NCBI GenBank assembly: GCA_018062285.1
Contig: JAGOSO010000006.1
Coordinates: 1-40,097 of the forward strand
DNA from: Minisyncoccota bacterium
Lineage (GTDB): Bacteria > Patescibacteriota > Minisyncoccia > 2-02-FULL-40-12 > GWA2-44-9
Length of the DNA: 40,097 bases
Direction: 5' to 3'
Shown: positions 1,644 to 40,097 of the stretch, piece after piece
How positions within the stretch are numbered: position 1 is the stretch's first letter
Layout of the letters: the number at the start of each line of letters is the position of its first letter
Notes under the pieces: generated by a model
The model's input: only the letters and a program-made list of their open reading frames with translations
What the model was told of the DNA's origin: nothing
Databases searched by the model: none
Translations under genes and position numbers: made by a program

Positions 1644-2063
1644 ATGGCAAAGAAAGTAAAAACAATAGTAAAATTACAGGTTATTGCAGGCAAATTAGAA
1701 CCATCAAAGATCGGTCAGGCTTTAGGGCCTCACGGTTTGAATCTTCAGCAGTTCATGGCCCAGGTTAACGAAGCCGCCAAAGACAAAGAAGGACAACAGA
1801 TTCCAGTTGAAATTACTATCTATGACGATCGTACTTTCACCTTTATCTTAAAGACTCCGCCAGCTGCTTACTTGTTGCGCAGTGCTGCGGGAATCGAAAA
1901 AGGCTCTGGTGTTCCTAATAAAACCAAGGTTGGCAGTGTGACCAAGGCTCAAGTTTTGAAGATCGCTGAACAGAAGATGGGCGACTTGAATGCTAACGAT
2001 GTCGAAGCTGCCGCTAAGATTATTGGTGGCACCGCTCGCTCAATGGGCATCGAAGTTAAATAA
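1644..2063 (+). CDS. rplK: 50S ribosomal protein L11 (uL11), divergent N-terminal domain
   Basis: [16 protein letters not shown] and [10 protein letters not shown] are conserved; follows nusG. Confidence 0.96.
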
Positions 2064-2070
2064 GAATTCT

Positions 2071-2111
2071 AAATAACAAAACCTCCGCGACTCGCGGAGG
2101 TTTTGTTATTT
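2071..2111. terminator. Bidirectional intrinsic terminator after rplK
   Basis: Perfect 20-nt inverted repeat aaataacaaaacctccgcga-c-tcgcggaggttttgttattt. Confidence 0.88.
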
Positions 2112-2155
2112 ATGGTTAATTTGATAAAGTGTCTAAAGTTCTTACAAGGAGCGTT

Positions 2156-2824
2156 ATGATCGTACATCCGTTTCGAGGAGTTTTCTTTGCCATTGAAGGC
2201 GTTGATGGTAATGGCAAGTCGGCTACTGCAAACCTTTTTTCTGAGAGGCTCAGGACTATTCACGGTATGAATGTTGAGATTGCCAAAGAGCCTGGGAAGA
2301 ACAGGACTTACGGCAAGTTGATCTACGAAGATCTAAACACTCCAGGTGGAATGCATGCCACTGACCCCATTGGCTTCCAGCGTTGGTTTGCTTGCGATAG
2401 CAAACAGAACGTCACCGACAACATTATGAGAGCCCTCTCGGCCGATCGTGGCGTTGTCGTCGCTGATCGCTACCGGCACTCTATGGTTCATGGGGCCACG
2501 AATGGAAAAGAGCAATTTCCTAAACTGATGCAGTTGACCGCTCAGATCATGGGTGAGCATTTTTTCTGGCCAGATCTGACTTTCATCTTGGATGTATCTC
2601 CCGAGACATCAATGGAGCGTCTACAGAAGAAGGGACGGAAGCTTGATGGCTATGAGGTCCAAGACCGGTTGGCTTGGGTTCGTCAGAACTATCTCGATTT
2701 CGCCTGGGCATACCCGGCTGGAACAATCGTTCTTTCCGGAGAGCCATCAACGGAAGAGATTGTTCGAGAAATCGAGGTTTCCGCTGTTCCTGTTTTGCGC
2801 AAGAAGGGGTTCATCAAGGATTGA
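2156..2824 (+). CDS. tmk: Thymidylate (dTMP) kinase
   Basis: P-loop IEGVDGNGKS, KEPG, ADRY and PDLTFILDV. Start moved to ATG 2156, 4 nt after AAGGAG. Confidence 0.85.
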   Translation: MIVHPFRGVFFAIEGVDGNGKSATANLFSERLRTIHGMNVEIAKEPGKNRTYGKLIYEDLNTPGGMHATDPIGFQRWFACDSKQNVTDNIMRALSADRGVVVADRYRHSMVHGATNGKEQFPKLMQLTAQIMGEHFFWPDLTFILDVSPETSMERLQKKGRKLDGYEVQDRLAWVRQNYLDFAWAYPAGTIVLSGEPSTEEIVREIEVSAVPVLRKKGFIKD

Positions 2825-2844
2825 ACCACCTGCTTGTCTGGATC

Positions 2845-2875
2845 GCCCTGGTGTTAAAGCGCCGGGGCTTTTTTT
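2845..2875 (+). terminator. Intrinsic terminator after tmk
   Basis: gccctggtg/cgccggggc stem (G-U pairs) followed by T7. Confidence 0.7.
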
Positions 2876-2904
2876 GTTCCATAAATCATGGTAAATTAAG
2901 CATT

Positions 2905-4371
2905 ATGAAATATCAGCCCGTTATTGGTCTCGAAATCCATGCAGCCCTCAAAACCAAAACAAAAATGTTTTGTGATTCTTTGAATGACCCAGACGAAAAG
3001 CGTCCCAATTGGAATGTCTGCCCAATTTGTATGGGGCATCCAGGGACTATTCCAGTCATCAACCAAGAGGCGGTCCGCAAAGTAATCCTTACCGGCTTAG
3101 CTTTGAATTGTAAGATTGCTCACGATACTTTTTTTGAACGTAAGAATTATTTTTATCCTGACTTGCCAAAAGGTTATCAGATTTCTCAGTACCAGAAGCC
3201 ACTTTGTGAACATGGGGAACTGACTATTGAAGGCGGTAAAAAGATTCGCATTACTCGTATCCACTTAGAAGAAGATGCTGGTCGACTCCAGCACGATCCA
3301 TCAGGTGACTTTTCTTTGGTTGATTATAATCGGGCCTGCGTCCCGTTGATGGAGTTGGTCACTGAACCAGATTTTAATAATGGAACCGATGTCCGTTCTT
3401 TTTCAGAGGCCTATCAGATGATTTTAAAATATATTGGTGCTTCTGATGCAGACATGGAAAAGGGTTTGATGCGAGTCGAGGTTAATATCTCTTTAACTAA
3501 CGAAGACGGTTCTTATGGTACTAAAGTAGAAATTAAAAACTTAAATTCTATTACTGCCGCCGCAGCATCAGTTGATTACGAAATAGCTCGCCAGAAAGAA
3601 TTAATTGAAAGTGGGGGAGAAGTTGTGCCTGAAACTCGAGGTTGGGATGAAAATAAAAAAGCGACTTTTAGCCAGCGCACCAAAGAGGAAGCTCAGGACT
3701 ATCGTTATTTCCCAGAGCCAGATTTGCCACCTTTGCATTTTGAAGATTCTGATATCGAAGCCATCAAGACCACCATGCCAGAATTGCCTCAGGCTCGTCA
3801 TGAGCGCTTTAAAAAACAGTATGGTTTACCAGATGCTGACATAGAGATGTTTGTTGCTGACAAGGTTCTCGGCAACTTCTTTGAACACGTGGCTAGTGAA
3901 TTGATGTCTTTTGATAAGCTTGGTCATCTTGAAAGACCCGCCCCAGAACATCAAGAGAGATTATTTAAGCTGGCATCAAATTATGCGATTACAGAATTAC
4001 AGAAGCATCGTACAACTTCTGGCAGTGAAGACACAAAGATAACACCTGAGTCTTTCGCTGATCTGGTAGTTCGTGTATTCCACAAACAGATCTCATCCTC
4101 CGGTGCCCAAGCCGTGCTTGAAGAAATGTTCAAGACTGGCGCATCTCCAGAACATGTTATTAAAGAAAAAGATCTTGGCCAGGTTTCTGATGCTGGTGCC
4201 CTAGATTCAATCGTTGATGCTGTTATTGCCGCCAATCCAAAACCAGTTGAAGATTACAAGAAAGGCAAAGAGGCATCCCTTAAATTCTTAATTGGTATGG
4301 CTATGCGTGAATCCAAGGGCAAGGGGAATCCGCAGGTTCTCGAAGAGATAATTAAACAAAAGCTTTCATAA
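2905..4371 (+). CDS. gatB: Asp-tRNA(Asn)/Glu-tRNA(Gln) amidotransferase subunit B
   Basis: MKYQPVIGLEIH, FYPDLPKGYQISQ, IHLEEDAG, DYRYFPEPDLPP and C-terminal YqeY-like domain. True start is ATG 2905; the track's upstream extension overlaps tmk. Confidence 0.96.
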   Translation: MKYQPVIGLEIHAALKTKTKMFCDSLNDPDEKRPNWNVCPICMGHPGTIPVINQEAVRKVILTGLALNCKIAHDTFFERKNYFYPDLPKGYQISQYQKPLCEHGELTIEGGKKIRITRIHLEEDAGRLQHDPSGDFSLVDYNRACVPLMELVTEPDFNNGTDVRSFSEAYQMILKYIGASDADMEKGLMRVEVNISLTNEDGSYGTKVEIKNLNSITAAAASVDYEIARQKELIESGGEVVPETRGWDENKKATFSQRTKEEAQDYRYFPEPDLPPLHFEDSDIEAIKTTMPELPQARHERFKKQYGLPDADIEMFVADKVLGNFFEHVASELMSFDKLGHLERPAPEHQERLFKLASNYAITELQKHRTTSGSEDTKITPESFADLVVRVFHKQISSSGAQAVLEEMFKTGASPEHVIKEKDLGQVSDAGALDSIVDAVIAANPKPVEDYKKGKEASLKFLIGMAMRESKGKGNPQVLEEIIKQKLS

Positions 4372-7851: not shown

Positions 7852-10800
7852 CTAAGCGAGGGTTGCGACGTGGCGAGCATCGTCACAGAGGAGTTTTGCG
7901 AGGCCGTCTTTGTCGTTAACTTTCCCAGCAACAACGATGATTGCATTTTCTTTAAATATCTCGGGATACTTTTCAAGAATGGTAGGGAAGACAACGACTT
8001 CAATCTTTGAAGTTAGGTCTTCGATCCACGCAAAGAGCATTGGTTTACCGGTCTTTGTGATTATCTTTTGAACTTTAGTTACAATTCCACCGATCTTTAT
8101 TGGGCCAGACATCTTAGGACGAACTTCTTTGATGGTGATGGTTTTTTCCAACTTCATGTTCTTGGCGTATTCATGGAGTGGGTGGGCAGAAACAAACAGA
8201 CCAAGCAATTCTTTTTCCCACATTAGTTTTTCGGAATTTTTTGCGGCCGTTGCAGAGATTAATTTTAATGAAGGCAAAACACTCATGTCGTTGCCAAACA
8301 AACTGGCCTGGCTCATGCCCTGACTCTTTTGGATATCGTGGGCATAAGTGAGAAGATTCTCGATGTTCATCAAAAGGAGGTTTCTCTCGCCAAATGAATC
8401 AAGGGCCCCACATTTAATTAAGGCTTCCATTGATTTCTTGTTGAGGTCTTTGTTTTTGACACGAGTAACAAAGTTTTCGATATCGGTGAATGGACCATTA
8501 TCTTTGCGTTCGGCAATGATAGCATTGGCGATGTTTTCGCCTAAGTTTTTGATAGTTAGTAAACCGAAACGAATTTGGTCTTTTCCTGTCGGGCTATTTT
8601 TGCCTTTGATGACAGTAAAATCTTTGTAAGAACTATTTATTTCTGGTGGTAAAACAGGAATCTTCATCTTCTGACATTCTTCGATAACTTGAGCCACGCG
8701 TTCAGTGTCACCAGATTCAGCAGTGAGAATGGCGCACATATATTCAGCTGAGTAGTGAGCCTTCATGTAGGCTGTTTGGTAAGCGACGCGGCCATAGCAG
8801 GCAGCATGAGCTTTGTTGAAACCGTAACCTTGGAATGGTTCGAATAAATTCCAAATCTCTTCAGCTTGTTGAGCGGTCATGCCTGAGTGGCTCTGGCAAC
8901 CTTCTACGAAAATAACATGTTGCTTGGCCATTTCTGCTGGAATTTTTTTACCAACAGCTTTGCGGAATTTATCGACTGATTCCCAGTTGTAGCCGGCGAG
9001 TTCCATGGCCGTGAACAATAGGTCGTCTTGGTATACGAGAATGCCGTAGGACTTAGCTAAGAATTTTTCTGCTTTCGGATGGAAGTAAGTGATGCGACTG
9101 CGACCCTGTTTGCGGGCAATGTATTCAGGGATGTTGTTGATTGGTCCTGGGCGGTACAAGGCAACCATAGCGTTGATATCATAGATGGTAGTTGGTTTCA
9201 GCTCCATTAGGTATTTAGTCATGCCCGCTGAACCGCCGAGCTGGAAGACGCCTTCAGTTCCACCAGAAGCTAACATTGCAAATGTTTTCTTGTCATCAAA
9301 AGGAATTTTTTCAATATCAATATCGATGTTTTGGTGGATTTTAACCAAGCGCACAGCATTTTCGAGAATGGCCAAGTTTCTGATTCCAAGAACGTCGAGT
9401 TTTAGCAAGCCAACGCCGTCTTCGCCCACAGTGTACATGTCGTACTGGGTGATTAAGTGTGTGCCTTCTTTTGGATCAAACTGAATCGGTACGTACTCTA
9501 CTAATGGTTTTGGAGAAATAACGACACCTGCAGCGTGAACAGAAACATGGCGAACGGTGCCTTCTAATTTTTTAGCGATATCGATAATGTGGTGAGCCTC
9601 AGAATCTTGTTCGTAAGCCTTCTTTAATTCCGGCTCAAGTTCCATGGCTCGATCAATCGTCATCGGGAAACCCTGTGAGCCCATTGGGATTAACTTAGCC
9701 AAGCGATCACCAGTTTCATATGATTTCCCAAGAGCTCGAGCTACGTCACGAACAGAGCCACGGGCCAACATTGTTCCAAAAGTACCGATTTGAGCAACTT
9801 TATCTTCTCCATATTTCTTTTTGGCATACTCAACAATTTCTTGGCGGCGGTTGTCGGCAAAGTCCATGTCGATATCGGGAGCAGATGGACGGAAAGGATT
9901 TAAGAATCTTTCAAACGGGAGAAGAAATTCAATCGGGTCAACACTGGTAATGCGTGATAGATAAGCAACAAAAGAACCAGCGGCCGAACCTCTAACGGTT
10001 GTGTAGATTTGATTTTGATGGGCGAAGTTGAGCAAGTCAGCAACTACCAAAAAGTAGGGTGAGTAACCCTTGTTTTTAATAATCTCCAATTCATATTTGC
10101 GGCGTTCTTCGGCCTCGGCATTGTTTTCCATTCCGCGTTCAATCATGCCTTTTTTGGTTAGGTCATCGAGCATTTCATCTGCTGTCTTGCCTGGTTCGAG
10201 AGGGAAGTCTGGGAAAATAAATTTGCCGAGAGTCAAATCAACATTGCAACGATCGGCAACAAGTTGAGTGTTGGTGACAGCTTCTGGAATATCTTTAAAT
10301 TTTTCAACCGCTTCTTCTGTTGAGAGGAAGTGATATTCTCCTTGGCCAGAAAACAAAGCAGGGTCACTAACGTCGGTGTGGGTAGAGATAGCAACCAGTG
10401 TCTTGTGGGCTTCGGCATCTTCCTTTCTTAAATAATGGGAGTCTTGGGTTGCGACAAGGGGGATATTAAATTTCTTAGAAAATCCGACAATGGTATCTTT
10501 CCAGTCCTCATAAAATTCCACGTCTGGGTGGTTCATGATTTCCAGATAGTAATTGTCCTTTCCAAAAATTGATTGGTACTCAAGAACAATCTCTTCAGCC
10601 TTTTCTTTGTCACCGTGTTGGATGGCTCTGCCTAGTTCACTCCCTGGGCACCCAGAAAGACAGATAACCCCTTCAGCATGTTTGCGAAGTAGTTCTTTGT
10701 CGACACGTGGTTTGTAGTAATAACCCTCAGTGTGGGCGATCGTGGTGAGTTTGATGAGGTTCTGGTAACCGGTATTGTTCTCAGCAAGCAAAGTTAGGTG

Positions 10801-39040: not shown

Positions 39041-39613
39041 ATGATGTCATTTTTTAAGGATTGTATTCGAGCCTATCGACACAAAAGAATTCTTAAAATT
39101 ATTGATATCCCCCAAAGCGGGATAGTTTTAGATGTCTCTTGTTCAGATGGGGTCTTTTTAGATCGTTTACACCAAATATTGCCGGAGCTGAATTTATTTG
39201 GCGTAGATATTTCTGCTGAAGAAGTTGCGAAAGCAAAAATAAAGTTCCCCCTTATTGGGTTTACTCAGGGAGATGCGGGCCGATTAGATTTTGAAAGTAA
39301 TACTTTTGATATTGTTTTTTCAATAATGTCGCTGCATCACTACAAAGGCCCGATTCAATTTTTTGAAGATGTTTTTCGTGTTTTGAAAAATGATGGGGTT
39401 ATGTATCTTGTTGATCTTGTGCCTAAATATCGATGGATTCAAAAAATAAATAATTGGATGGGTTGTTCAGAGCCGTACCATTTTGAGAGGTATTATTCGC
39501 TAAATGATTTAGATGTAATATTAAAACCTTTGCGTTTTCTTGTCACTGAAGATAAAAGACTAACAATCTTTCCTAGGATAAGAGTCCTAAAAATAAAAAA
39601 GATTAGTTCCTAG
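39041..39613 (+). CDS. Class I SAM-dependent methyltransferase
   Basis: VLDVSCSDG (motif I), GVDIS, GDA..L.F..NTFDIV, SLHHY, RVLK.DG. Confidence 0.8.
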   Translation: MMSFFKDCIRAYRHKRILKIIDIPQSGIVLDVSCSDGVFLDRLHQILPELNLFGVDISAEEVAKAKIKFPLIGFTQGDAGRLDFESNTFDIVFSIMSLHHYKGPIQFFEDVFRVLKNDGVMYLVDLVPKYRWIQKINNWMGCSEPYHFERYYSLNDLDVILKPLRFLVTEDKRLTIFPRIRVLKIKKISS

Positions 39614-39645
39614 ATTACTAAAAAATAGAGGACAAATGAGTTGAT

Positions 39646-39700
39646 CCCGCATATAACAAACAACGACCACTTTCGTGGTCCTGGTTTTGCTATATGCGGG
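39646..39700. repeat. Long imperfect inverted repeat or hairpin
   Basis: cccgcatata/tatatgcggg outer stem and gaccac-tttc-gtggtc inner stem. Confidence 0.7.
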
Positions 39701-39735
39701 GTTGAAAAATCGTCTTAAGGCGGTATAATAAAAAG

Positions 39736-40097
39736 GTGTTAGAATACGAGAATAATAAGGCTCTTTTATATATCTATTCTGGGGCCGGTGGCGTAGATGC
39801 TCAAGATTGGGCGTCGATGCTGCTTACAATGTATCGCAAATACTCGGCCAATCAAGGCTGGGGTTTTTCTGTTTTGAGTCAGACTTTTGGCGAGAAGGAT
39901 GGCACAAAGAATGCTGTCGCCGAAATTTCTGGTCCAAATTGTTATGAAAAGATTCGCCGCGAATCAGGAGTGCATCGGTTGGTCCGTATCTCTCCATATT
40001 CGTCAAAGGATTTGCGACACACTTCGTTTGCACTAGTTGAATTCGTGCCCGAAGTTATCGCTAAGCATTTCCAAATAAATGTTAACGATTTGAGGGT
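39736..40097 (+). CDS. prfB: Peptide chain release factor 2-like protein lacking domain 1 (3' end outside window)
   Basis: Hand translation from GTG 39736: MLEYENNKALLYIYSGAGGVDAQDWASML...ESGVHRLVRISPY..RHTSFA. Open to the window end; in-frame TGA at 39703-39705 upstream. Confidence 0.85.
   Translation, partial: MLEYENNKALLYIYSGAGGVDAQDWASMLLTMYRKYSANQGWGFSVLSQTFGEKDGTKNAVAEISGPNCYEKIRRESGVHRLVRISPYSSKDLRHTSFALVEFVPEVIAKHFQINVNDLR

What the first reader, a model, noticed from the sequence alone, without database searches (positions are those of the whole stretch)
39702..40097. RF2 with no domain 1, no frameshift cassette and an SPY anticodon motif
The gene starts leaderless (TTGAAA-16-TATAAT-6-GTG) about 10 residues before the domain-2 strand leading to GAGG.DAQDWA, roughly 115-120 aa into a canonical RF2. 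An in-frame stop lies at 39703, there is no room for the N-terminal coiled coil, and no CTT-TGA-C slippery site is present. The specificity tripeptide is SPY (39991-39999) rather than SPF. Domain 1 is the established contact for L11 and RF3, and its absence is a PrfH-like feature, but the sequence is otherwise RF2-like. Together with the remodelled L11 N-terminus this suggests a simplified, RF3-independent termination system, or a rescue factor.
Basis: partly seen in the sequence, partly recalled or inferred. Interest (0 to 1): 0.72.

Follow-up and report, generated by a model that had tools for sequence, protein, structure and literature searches.

The report
Release factor 2 without domain 1
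This is the start of a stop-codon release factor (RF2) gene that has lost its whole first domain and its usual self-regulating frameshift, and the same short gene is conserved across about 46 related species of tiny "Yanofskybacteria" (CPR) bacteria, so it is a real, working natural variant and not an assembly error.

Summary
Window 39736-40097 (+) holds the first 120 codons of an RF2 gene. It starts about 15 codons before GAGGVDAQDWA, which aligns to residue ~122 of E. coli RF2. An in-frame TGA lies at 39703, and TTGAAA-16-TATAAT-6-GTG sits directly in front of the start.

A near-identical contig (L082, 99.975% over 3984 nt) supplies the rest of the gene: 244 aa, GGQ present, followed by ftsE and ftsX.

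The same ~243-aa form occurs in about 46 species-level genomes. These form one clade nested inside full-length Paceibacteria RF2s. The full-length relatives keep domain 1 and the classic CTT TGA +1 frameshift (38/41 loci).

The truncated genes:
- occupy the ancestral prfB-ftsE-ftsX position
- show no rate acceleration
- keep all decoding and catalytic motifs
- often end in TGA themselves

No domain 1 is encoded nearby, and no stand-alone domain-1 family exists.

The best reading is the lineage's housekeeping RF2, minus domain 1 and minus frameshift autoregulation, expressed from a conserved leaderless promoter.

SPY is an ordinary known variant, SP(F/Y). A PrfH-like or rescue role is not supported. 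RF1, RF3 and a possible second RF2 elsewhere in the genome could not be checked, nor could any link to L11. I found no description of this in the searchable literature. I rate it a new variant of a known kind.

The parts
39736..40097 (+). 5' part (120 codons) of prfB lacking domain 1. The gene runs off the window. By the near-identical contig L082 it is 244 codons plus a stop, and would end at about window-equivalent 40470.
   Evidence: prfB E 2e-39, profile 112-229/353. (L082 99.975% identical; full ORF 244 aa with GGQ). (aligns to E. coli RF2 residues 122-361, E 5e-59).
39736..39738 (+). GTG start codon, 15 codons before GAGG.
   Evidence: First start codon after the in-frame TGA. A GTG or ATG at the same register is found in the truncated-clade loci. 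GAGG lies at residue 14-15 in 110 of 120 homologous protein clusters.
39702..39707 (+). -35-like hexamer TTGAAA.
   Evidence: Conserved at a 16-17 nt spacing from the -10 in most clade-A loci.
39724..39729 (+). -10 hexamer TATAAT, 6 nt before the start codon, implying a leaderless or near-leaderless mRNA.
   Evidence: 26/31 related loci have <=2 mismatches in total and a 6-7 nt gap, against 0.8% of controls. The transcription start site itself is inferred, not measured.
39703..39705 (+). In-frame TGA that closes the reading frame upstream of the start.
   Evidence: In-frame stops 14-73 codons before GAGG, mostly 14-42, in all truncated loci.
39781..39813 (+). GAGGVDAQDWA: end of the first domain-2 strand and tip of helix alpha5, the element that reads U1 of the stop codon in solved RF2 complexes.
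   Evidence: GGVDAQDW is the same in the full-length sister clade. The structural role comes from established RF2 structures, not from a test here.
39991..39999 (+). SPY tripeptide, the RF2 'anticodon' motif in its SP(F/Y) variant.
   Evidence: Distribution. SP(F/Y) in PMC1586002.
40015..40029 (+). RHTSF, containing the conserved His that stacks on the third stop-codon base in RF2 structures.
   Evidence: Invariant R93 H94 T95 S96 F97 in alignment A1.
39641..39705 (+). Strong intergenic stem-loop between the methyltransferase gene and the prfB promoter. Its 3' arm overlaps the -35. It is probably a terminator or insulator for the upstream gene.
   Evidence: -37.9 kcal/mol for 39630-39740, z -4.7, 0/200 shuffles fold as well. 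No Rfam match. The function is inferred.

Best explanation
This is the organism's ordinary, orthologous prfB gene: class-I release factor 2, which reads UGA and UAA.

In the common ancestor of a Paceibacteria ('Candidatus Yanofskybacteria') clade, the gene lost its first ~120 codons. That removed the N-terminal helical domain 1 and, with it, the CTT-TGA +1 frameshift site that normally autoregulates RF2 synthesis.

The remaining 244-aa protein consists of domains 2, 3 and 4. These include the stop-codon reading elements (GGVDAQDW tip, SPY, RHTSF) and the GGQ catalytic loop. It is therefore expected to bind the A site, recognise UGA/UAA and hydrolyse peptidyl-tRNA exactly as RF2 does. It would lack the domain that bridges to the L11 stalk and mediates RF3-stimulated recycling, so it would leave the ribosome spontaneously.

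The gene is transcribed from a sigma-70-type promoter placed so that the transcript starts at or next to the GTG (a leaderless mRNA). It heads a prfB-ftsE-ftsX operon.

Shown: the truncation, loss of the frameshift, orthology, clade-wide conservation, and intact motifs.
Inferred: release activity, RF3 independence, the exact transcription start, and that it is the only RF2 in the cell.
For: - Identity. prfB is by far the best family: E 2.5e-101, 339 bits, profile 112-350/353. RF1 scores 222 bits and PrfH 111 bits. PDB RF2 matches at E 2.5e-67 over 238 residues.
- Whole gene. L082 gives 244 aa with GPGGQNVN.
- Clade-wide conservation. About 46 species-level genomes have an in-frame stop 14-73 codons before GAGG, mostly 14-42, and ORFs of roughly 236-280 aa, mostly 240-250. 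All 120 best protein clusters are 236-275 aa and have GGQ.
- Single origin. All truncated forms are one clade nested within full-length RF2s.
- Frameshift. 38/41 full-length-type relatives have an in-register CTT TGA preceded by a ~25-codon 0-frame ORF. No truncated locus has a genuine one.
- Orthology. prfB-ftsE-ftsX synteny holds in 28/28 clade-A loci, 6/9 clade-B loci, 9/11 sister full-length loci and 17/23 outgroups.
- Constraint. Identity to outgroup RF2s is 57.1% for truncated clade A, 53.2% for clade B and 58.0% for the full-length sister clade.
- No domain 1 elsewhere. tblastn finds none within +-10 kb in 45 loci or in the 40-kb window. A domain-1 profile finds only 3 fragments among short proteins in the 5.8e9-protein database.
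- No second RF gene in the window or in any locus. No truncated-clade assembly gave a second RF2 locus among the best 80.
- UGA is a live stop codon in these genomes. It makes up 17% of stops in clade A and 33% in clade B. The truncated prfB itself ends in TGA in 7/28 and 6/9 loci.
- Promoter at a fixed distance in 26/31 loci versus 0.8% of controls.
- Literature. Domain 1 is dispensable for codon-specific release in vitro and needed for RF3 stimulation (PMC1586002, citing Mora et al. 2003). RF3 is absent from several bacterial lineages, where RF1 and RF2 act alone (PMC6742477).
Against: - No activity, expression or transcript-end data exist.
- I could not scan the rest of any of these genomes. 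A second, full-length or divergent RF2, the state of RF1, and the presence or absence of prfC are unknown.
- The genome-collection scan only picks up genes that share an exact 8-residue pattern with the query, so a divergent paralogue would be missed.
- In this particular genome, none of 35 ORFs of >=120 aa in the window ends in TGA, so the need for UGA reading here is not demonstrated.
- GTG is a weak start for leaderless mRNAs in E. coli (my own knowledge), although GUG-initiated leaderless mRNAs are known in other bacteria.
- Three close relatives (L001-L003) have an insert between promoter and start, so leaderlessness is not obligatory.
- The protein falls below NCBI's curated prfB cut-off (339 < 370 bits).
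Confidence: 0.75

Rival explanations
1. The short gene is a specialised paralogue: a PrfH-like or ArfB-like ribosome rescue factor, or a degenerating copy. A normal full-length RF2 would be encoded elsewhere in the genome.
For: - Like PrfH, it lacks domain 1 (PMC1586002).
- NCBI's pipeline names members only 'peptide chain release factor-like protein' or 'PCRF domain-containing protein'.
- It scores below the prfB cut-off.
- The rest of the genomes could not be searched.
- TGA stops are absent from this window.
Against: - It sits at the ancestral prfB-ftsE-ftsX position.
- It is nested within orthologous RF2s with no rate acceleration.
- It keeps SPF/SPY, the alpha5 tip, RHTSF and GGQ.
- The PrfH model scores no better than it does for the full-length sister RF2 (111 vs 110 bits, cut-off 166.65).
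- No rtcB is next to it.
- None of about 46 assemblies gave a second RF2 locus among the best 80, which reached down to 48% identity.
Confidence: 0.08
2. RF2 is split. Domain 1 would be made as a separate polypeptide from another gene and would associate with the 244-aa body.
For: Only that domain 1 is a structurally separate, flexible module and that most of each genome could not be examined.
Against: - tblastn with seven domain-1 sequences finds nothing (only noise at E<=10) in the window or within +-10 kb of 45 truncated loci.
- A profile of ten sister-clade domain 1 sequences, searched against 5.8e9 proteins, returned only three hits, none longer than 136 aa. Two lie on 1-2 kb contigs and one is a partial Levybacteria protein. 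The truncated body, by contrast, has at least 120 clusters.
Confidence: 0.03
3. Artefact or pseudogene: an assembly break, a mis-join or a recent inactivating deletion.
For: The window ends inside the gene, and the genomes are metagenome-assembled.
Against: - The 5' flank is contiguous in the window.
- An independent assembly (L082) is 99.975% identical through the junction and to the stop codon.
- About 46 independently assembled species have the same intact ORF.
- 60 residues are invariant across 24 aligned members.
Confidence: 0.01

Closest known systems
Canonical bacterial RF2 (prfB; NCBIfam TIGR00020; e.g. E. coli RF2, PDB 1GQE; T. thermophilus RF2 on the 70S ribosome)
   Same: Domains 2, 3 and 4 are homologous end to end (query residues 2-240 align to E. 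coli residues 122-361). The SP(F/Y) motif, GGxxAQDW tip, RHTSF and GGQ are present. The genomic position upstream of ftsEX is the same as in related Paceibacteria.
   Different: No N-terminal domain 1 (~120 residues). No CTT TGA +1 programmed frameshift. Leaderless-type promoter at the start codon. Score below the curated family cut-off (339 vs 370 bits).
Engineered N-terminally truncated RF1/RF2 of E. coli (Mora et al. 2003, as summarised in PMC1586002)
   Same: The same architecture (domain 1 removed). Those proteins keep codon-specific peptide release in vitro but lose stimulation by RF3. This is the best available model for how the natural protein should behave.
   Different: Those are laboratory constructs in an organism that has RF3. 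According to the discussion in PMC1586002, they support only slow growth. Here the truncation is natural, ancient and fixed in a whole clade.
PrfH (RFH; TIGR03072), partner of RtcB2
   Same: A class-I RF homologue that lacks domain 1 and has GGQ.
   Different: PrfH has altered decoding-site residues, is always paired with rtcB, and acts in rescue of damaged ribosomes. The protein here keeps RF2 decoding motifs, has no rtcB neighbour, and scores 111 bits against a 166.65 cut-off, no better than a normal RF2 does.
ArfB / ICT1 / C12orf65 (GGQ-only rescue hydrolases)
   Same: They share the GGQ (RF-1) domain.
   Different: They lack the codon-recognition domains 2 and 4 and carry a basic C-terminal tail. 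The protein here has full domains 2 and 4 and no such tail. The ArfB model matches only residues 107-144.

Membership tests
RF2 (prfB) | Homology of the codon-recognition and catalytic domains (Pfam PCRF C-terminal half plus RF-1; best family hit is prfB, not prfA) | tested here: met
   prfB 339 bits vs prfA 220-222 bits. PCRF 96-194/194 and RF-1 5-116/116. PDB RF2 E 2.5e-67 vs RF1 2.4e-48 or weaker.
RF2 (prfB) | SP(F/Y) tripeptide 'anticodon' | tested here: met
   SPY at 39991-39999. SPF in most relatives. Motif definition SP(F/Y) in PMC1586002.
RF2 (prfB) | GGQ catalytic motif | tested here: met
   Not inside the window. Present in L082, which is 99.975% identical to the window over 3984 nt, and in 120/120 homologous clusters.
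RF2 (prfB) | N-terminal helical domain 1 | tested here: not met
   The ORF starts 15 codons before GAGG with an in-frame TGA upstream. No domain-1 similarity nearby or as a separate family.
RF2 (prfB) | Curated whole-protein score cut-off of TIGR00020 | tested here: not met
   339.2 bits vs a cut-off of 370. The deficit corresponds to the missing profile positions 1-111. The frameshift-corrected sister protein scores 430.8 bits.
RF2 (prfB) | Programmed +1 frameshift (CTT TGA) near codon 26. Common in prfB but not universal. | tested here: not met
   Absent here and in all truncated loci. Present in 38/41 full-length-type relatives.
RF2 (prfB) | Orthologous genomic position | tested here: met
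   prfB-ftsE-ftsX in 28/28 clade-A loci, 9/11 sister loci and 17/23 outgroup loci. The truncated forms are nested in the RF2 tree.
RF2 (prfB) | UGA/UAA-dependent peptide release | not testable with these tools
   Needs a biochemical assay. Indirect support: TGA stops are used in truncated-clade genomes, including for prfB itself.
PrfH | Score above the TIGR03072 cut-off, with PrfH-specific decoding-site residues | tested here: not met
   111.4 bits vs a cut-off of 166.65, the same as a normal sister RF2 (109.7 bits). PDB PrfH E 3.7e-18 vs RF2 2.5e-67.
PrfH | rtcB gene immediately upstream in the same orientation | tested here: not met
   The upstream gene is a class-I methyltransferase in the window. 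No RtcB family appears among the called genes of L081 or L082.
ArfB/ICT1 | GGQ domain alone plus a basic C-terminal tail, with no codon-recognition domain | tested here: not met
   Domains 2 and 4 are present. The ArfB model matches only residues 107-144 (49.6 bits, cut-off 100).

The most novel reading that the evidence does not exclude
In this CPR clade the 244-aa protein is the only RF2. UGA/UAA termination would then run naturally with no domain 1, no RF3 and no frameshift feedback. It may be co-adapted with the altered factor-binding loop of L11 (PS-KIGQALG in place of PAPPVGPALG). This would be a naturally minimised bacterial termination system, and the first case of an essential class-I release factor that has shed domain 1.
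Probability: 0.4. Interest if true: 0.65.

Novelty: new variant of a known kind. Interest (0 to 1): 0.55.

Why it matters
Domain 1 of class-I release factors was shown to be dispensable only with engineered E. coli proteins, and mostly in vitro. PrfH, the one natural domain-1-less relative, is a specialised rescue factor.

A clade of about 46 species has kept a domain-1-less RF2 under normal purifying selection, at the prfB locus, while still using UGA stops. If it is the sole RF2, this is a natural experiment showing that domain 1, and with it RF3 coupling and the conserved frameshift autoregulation, can be discarded in vivo.

It gives a concrete protein for testing three things:
- what domain 1 contributes to on-rate, accuracy and recycling
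- how RF2 level is controlled without the frameshift
- whether CPR ribosomes (reduced rRNA and proteins, altered L11 loop) have compensating changes

There is also a practical point. Annotation pipelines currently label these genes 'release factor-like' or 'hypothetical', so genome surveys could wrongly score these bacteria as lacking RF2.

Tried and rejected
- First protein search with the 120-aa fragment. It therefore said nothing about gene length. I replaced it with genomic loci and a full-length query.
- TGA recoding. No ORF of >=120 aa in the window ends in TGA, so I tested whether TGA is a sense codon. Treating TGA as sense only produced 5' extensions and spurious ORFs, and no real genes merged. 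TGA is simply unused as a stop here. Recoding rejected.
- Upstream start via read-through of the TGA at 39703. The frame closes again at 39637, so at most 21 more codons could be added and none resembles domain 1. Rejected.
- Split gene or separate domain 1. Rejected.
- Rfam search of the intergenic hairpin and of the insert in L001. Only the neighbouring tRNAs matched.
- Representative-library survey. The few other 'short' RF2s outside the clade begin at the conserved (L)SGE/QxD just before domain 2 and come from GC-rich non-CPR sequences. I judged them most likely miscalled starts or fragments rather than further natural truncations. One divergent 253-aa protein (P0305) might be an independent case. 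Not pursued.
- AlphaFold model of a 90%-identical member. It gave only pLDDT 68 and pTM 0.57. I did not use it for any claim because sequence alignment to solved RF2 structures is already unambiguous.
- Literature. I found no paper describing domain-1-less RF2 in CPR/Patescibacteria. A Patescibacteria MAG annotation table in the supplement of PMC9600506 lists one prfB, one prfA-like gene and no prfC. Its best hits are to Nealsonbacteria rather than this clade, so it is only weak context.
- Extending the window upstream to look for prfA. Only short contigs were found.

Full report
**1. What is in the window**

- GTG at 39736 opens a frame that runs to the window end. It encodes VLEYENNKALLYIYSGAGGVDAQDWASMLL...GVHRLVRISPYSSKDLRHTSFALVEF...
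- The frame is closed upstream by TGA at 39703 and again at 39637.
- TTGAAA (39702) - 16 nt - TATAAT (39724) - 6 nt - GTG is present.
- SPY is at 39991-39999.
- Upstream lie a 190-aa class-I methyltransferase ORF (39041-39613), tRNA-Thr, tRNA-Gly, a DivIC-like gene and lepA. There is no space for ~120 codons of domain 1.
- The fragment hits NCBIfam prfB (E 2e-39) at profile positions 112-229/353, and only the C-terminal half of Pfam PCRF.

**2. The rest of the gene**

I looked up the neighbouring methyltransferase protein. This returned a 15.6-kb Logan contig (L082) that is 99.975% identical to the last 3984 nt of the window and extends it.
- The gene there is 244 codons. It differs from the window's 120 codons by one residue, contains SSGPGGQNVNK (GGQ present) and ends ...FIEGEKELP*.
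- Its stop overlaps the start of ftsE, which is followed by ftsX.
- The whole protein scores 339 bits on prfB (profile 112-350/353; cut-off 370), 222 on RF1, 111 on PrfH (cut-off 166.65) and 50 on ArfB.
- A 90%-identical homologue (P0121, 241 aa) aligns over residues 3-240 to solved RF2 structures, and to E. coli RF2 residues 122-361. E-values are 2.5e-67 for RF2, 2.4e-48 or weaker for RF1 and about 4e-18 for PrfH.

**3. It is a lineage trait, not an accident**

A scan of one genome per GTDB species returned 80 loci, mostly 'Candidatus Yanofskybacteria' and other Paceibacteria/Parcubacteria.
- ORF analysis and an NJ tree of domains 2-4 show about 46 species with an in-frame stop 14-73 codons before GAGG (mostly 14-42). 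Their ORFs are roughly 236-280 aa (mostly 240-250), with GGQ at about residue 129.
- All of these form one clade, nested inside RF2s that retain domain 1. Close relatives with domain 1 include L023, L030, L031, L034, L037, L038, L040, L043 and L045, at 59-68% identity to the window fragment.
- One sister-clade member (L025) has an independent partial deletion.
- In the 5.8-billion-protein database, the 120 best clusters are all 236-275 aa (median 243). GAGG is at residue 14-15 in 110 of them, and GGQ is in all 120.
- NCBI calls them 'peptide chain release factor-like protein', 'PCRF domain-containing protein' or 'hypothetical protein'. JGI calls them RF2.

**4. What was lost**

In 38 of 41 full-length-type loci there is an in-register CTT TGA about 100-113 codons before GAGG. 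It is preceded by a ~25-codon 0-frame ORF (M..L.E.L..M..K....R.RL), which is the classic prfB +1 frameshift.

The 41 truncated loci have none. Three chance CTTTGA matches occur at non-homologous positions with 6-9-codon 0-frame ORFs.

The ancestor therefore had a normal, frameshift-regulated RF2, and the clade lost domain 1 and the autoregulatory site together. The new N-terminus (M-L-E-Y-E-N-N-K-A-L-L-Y) replaces S-G-K-Y-D-K-G-N-A-L-L-Y. The cut is exactly at the domain 1/2 junction.

**5. Orthologue or paralogue?**

- The order prfB-ftsE-ftsX is found in 28/28 clade-A truncated loci, 6/9 clade-B loci, 9/11 sister full-length loci and 17/23 outgroup loci. The short gene occupies the ancestral prfB site.
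- Mean identity of domains 2-4 to outgroup RF2s is 57.1% for truncated clade A, 53.2% for clade B and 58.0% for the full-length sister clade. Clade A shows no acceleration of the kind expected for a redundant or neofunctionalised copy.
- Sixty positions are invariant among 24 aligned members, including GAGG, DAQDW, GVHRLVR, SP, RHTSF and GGQ.
- tblastn with a full RF2 finds no second RF gene in the window or in any locus.
- No truncated-clade assembly contributed a second RF2 locus to the best 80, which reached down to 48% identity. This last point is only moderately strong, because the scan needs an exact 8-residue pattern.

**6. Is domain 1 supplied separately?**

- Seven domain-1 sequences from full-length relatives give only noise (E 0.3-10) against the window and against +-10 kb of 45 truncated loci.
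- A profile of ten frameshift-corrected sister-clade domain 1 sequences (A2) was searched against the protein database. The tool appears to return only hits of length comparable to the query, so it should have exposed any stand-alone domain-1 proteins. It found three proteins. Two are fragments on 1-2 kb contigs, and one is a partial Levybacteria protein.
- A partner family for more than 120 clusters of truncated RF2 would have been visible. The split-gene idea is rejected.

**7. Is UGA still a stop codon?**

In truncated-clade loci, TGA ends 17% (clade A) and 33% (GC-rich clade B) of ORFs of >=150 aa, against 11% in the full-length sister loci. The truncated prfB itself ends in TGA in 7/28 and 6/9 loci, and ftsE does so in 7/28. 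These organisms therefore need an RF2 activity.

This genome is an outlier. None of the 35 ORFs of >=120 aa in the window ends in TGA, and the only TGA-terminated long ORF in L082 is an antisense shadow. Treating TGA as sense merges no genes, so this is avoidance, not recoding.

**8. Expression signal**

Anchoring all loci on GAGG shows the start codon (GTG in most, ATG in some) at the same register, preceded by TTGAAA-N16-17-TATAAT-N6-7.
- 26 of 31 clade-A loci have <=2 mismatches in total, and 11 are perfect. Only 0.8% of 4650 control start triplets from the same loci reach this.
- A -10 box ending 6-7 nt before the start puts the expected transcription start on or next to the first base of the start codon, which means a leaderless mRNA. 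This is comparative inference. There are no transcript data.
- Three close relatives (L001-L003) carry a ~75-100-nt insertion between the -10 box and a new ATG, so the arrangement is frequent but not obligatory.

**9. SPY**

The RF2 motif is already written SP(F/Y) (PMC1586002).
- SPY occurs in two ordinary full-length RF2s among 139 representatives with a scorable motif.
- Within the truncated family it is limited to the sub-clade nearest the window: 7 of the 39 scored truncated loci and 21 of 120 clusters.
- It neither defines nor correlates with the truncation.

**10. Mechanism**

Established knowledge:
- Domain 1 is required for RF3 stimulation but not for codon-specific release (Mora et al. 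2003, as summarised in PMC1586002).
- RF3 is dispensable, and it is missing from Thermus, Thermotoga, Chlamydiales and spirochaetes (PMC6742477).

The most likely picture is therefore a normal RF2 reaction (A-site binding, UGA/UAA recognition through the alpha5 tip, SPY and His, opening, GGQ-catalysed hydrolysis) followed by spontaneous dissociation. RF2 level would no longer be tuned by UGA-dependent frameshifting. Instead it would be set by a constitutive-looking promoter that also drives ftsEX.

Activity, RF3 independence and sole-RF2 status are inferred.

**11. Comparison and novelty**

By homology and position this is an RF2. It fails two formal family features: domain 1, and the curated score cut-off (which it misses because of the absent domain 1). 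It is not PrfH (no rtcB, RF2 decoding residues, sub-threshold score) and not ArfB.

The closest functional analogue is the engineered domain-1-deleted RF2 of E. coli. I found no paper describing a natural housekeeping RF2 without domain 1 in CPR or elsewhere. I rate it a new variant of a known kind, with interest 0.55.

**12. What remains open**

- the presence and architecture of RF1
- the presence of prfC
- a possible divergent second RF2
- whether the altered L11 N-terminal loop co-varies with the truncation ([14 protein letters not shown] here vs AGQANPAPPVGPALG in solved L11s)

The decisive analyses are listed under next steps.

Noticed in passing
window 1-40097 (all ORFs >=120 aa); L082: None of the 35 ORFs of >=120 aa in the window ends in TGA (23 TAA, 12 TAG). 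The only long TGA-terminated ORF in the 9.5-kb extension (L082) is an antisense shadow. Related loci average 11-17% TGA. The TGA trinucleotide itself is not depleted, and treating TGA as sense merges no genes. The genome seems to avoid UGA stops while keeping RF2.
   Followed up: partly
window 1644-2063 (+), rplK: L11 has a one-residue deletion and loses the conserved prolines of the N-terminal-domain loop: [17 protein letters not shown] here, against AGQANPAPPVGPALGQHG in solved L11s. The rest of the protein aligns normally (E 6e-47). Whether this tracks the RF2 truncation could not be tested.
   Followed up: partly
window 2063-4371: rplK is not followed by rplA (L1). Gene calls on an identical contig (L083) show a thymidylate kinase and then gatB directly after L11. 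L1 may be elsewhere or absent.
   Followed up: no
window 39641-39705: A 65-nt perfect-stemmed hairpin (15-bp outer stem, inner GACCAC/GTGGTC stem) lies between the methyltransferase gene and the prfB promoter and overlaps the -35 box. Folding 39630-39740 gives -37.9 kcal/mol, z -4.7. There is no U-tract and no Rfam match.
   Followed up: partly
L001 9925-10000; L003 9925-10000; L002 ~9900-10000: Three close relatives carry a ~75-100-nt insertion exactly between the conserved TATAAT box and the coding sequence. It creates a leader and a new ATG start. In L002 the old 'GTGTTGGAAT' start remnant is still visible upstream of the insert. It looks like a small inserted element. No Rfam match.
   Followed up: partly
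L025 8670-9560: A sister-clade genome (Yanofskybacteria D14_bin-0819) has an independent partial deletion. Only ~45 residues of domain 1 remain (the PDFWRD helix is kept, the rest is gone) and there is no CTT TGA frameshift site. This suggests domain 1 is repeatedly eroding in this group.
   Followed up: no
window 39041-39613 (+): The 190-aa SAM methyltransferase directly upstream of prfB (Methyltransf_11/25/23) is not conserved at this position in relatives. L001 has a small membrane protein there, and many loci have a tRNA. I saw no NPPY motif, so it is probably not the GGQ methylase PrmC.
   Followed up: partly
P0305 (253 aa): This is a divergent RF2-like protein, ~50% identical, that also starts just before the G.GG motif and has inserts in domain 2. 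It may be an independent domain-1-less lineage outside the clade.
   Followed up: no
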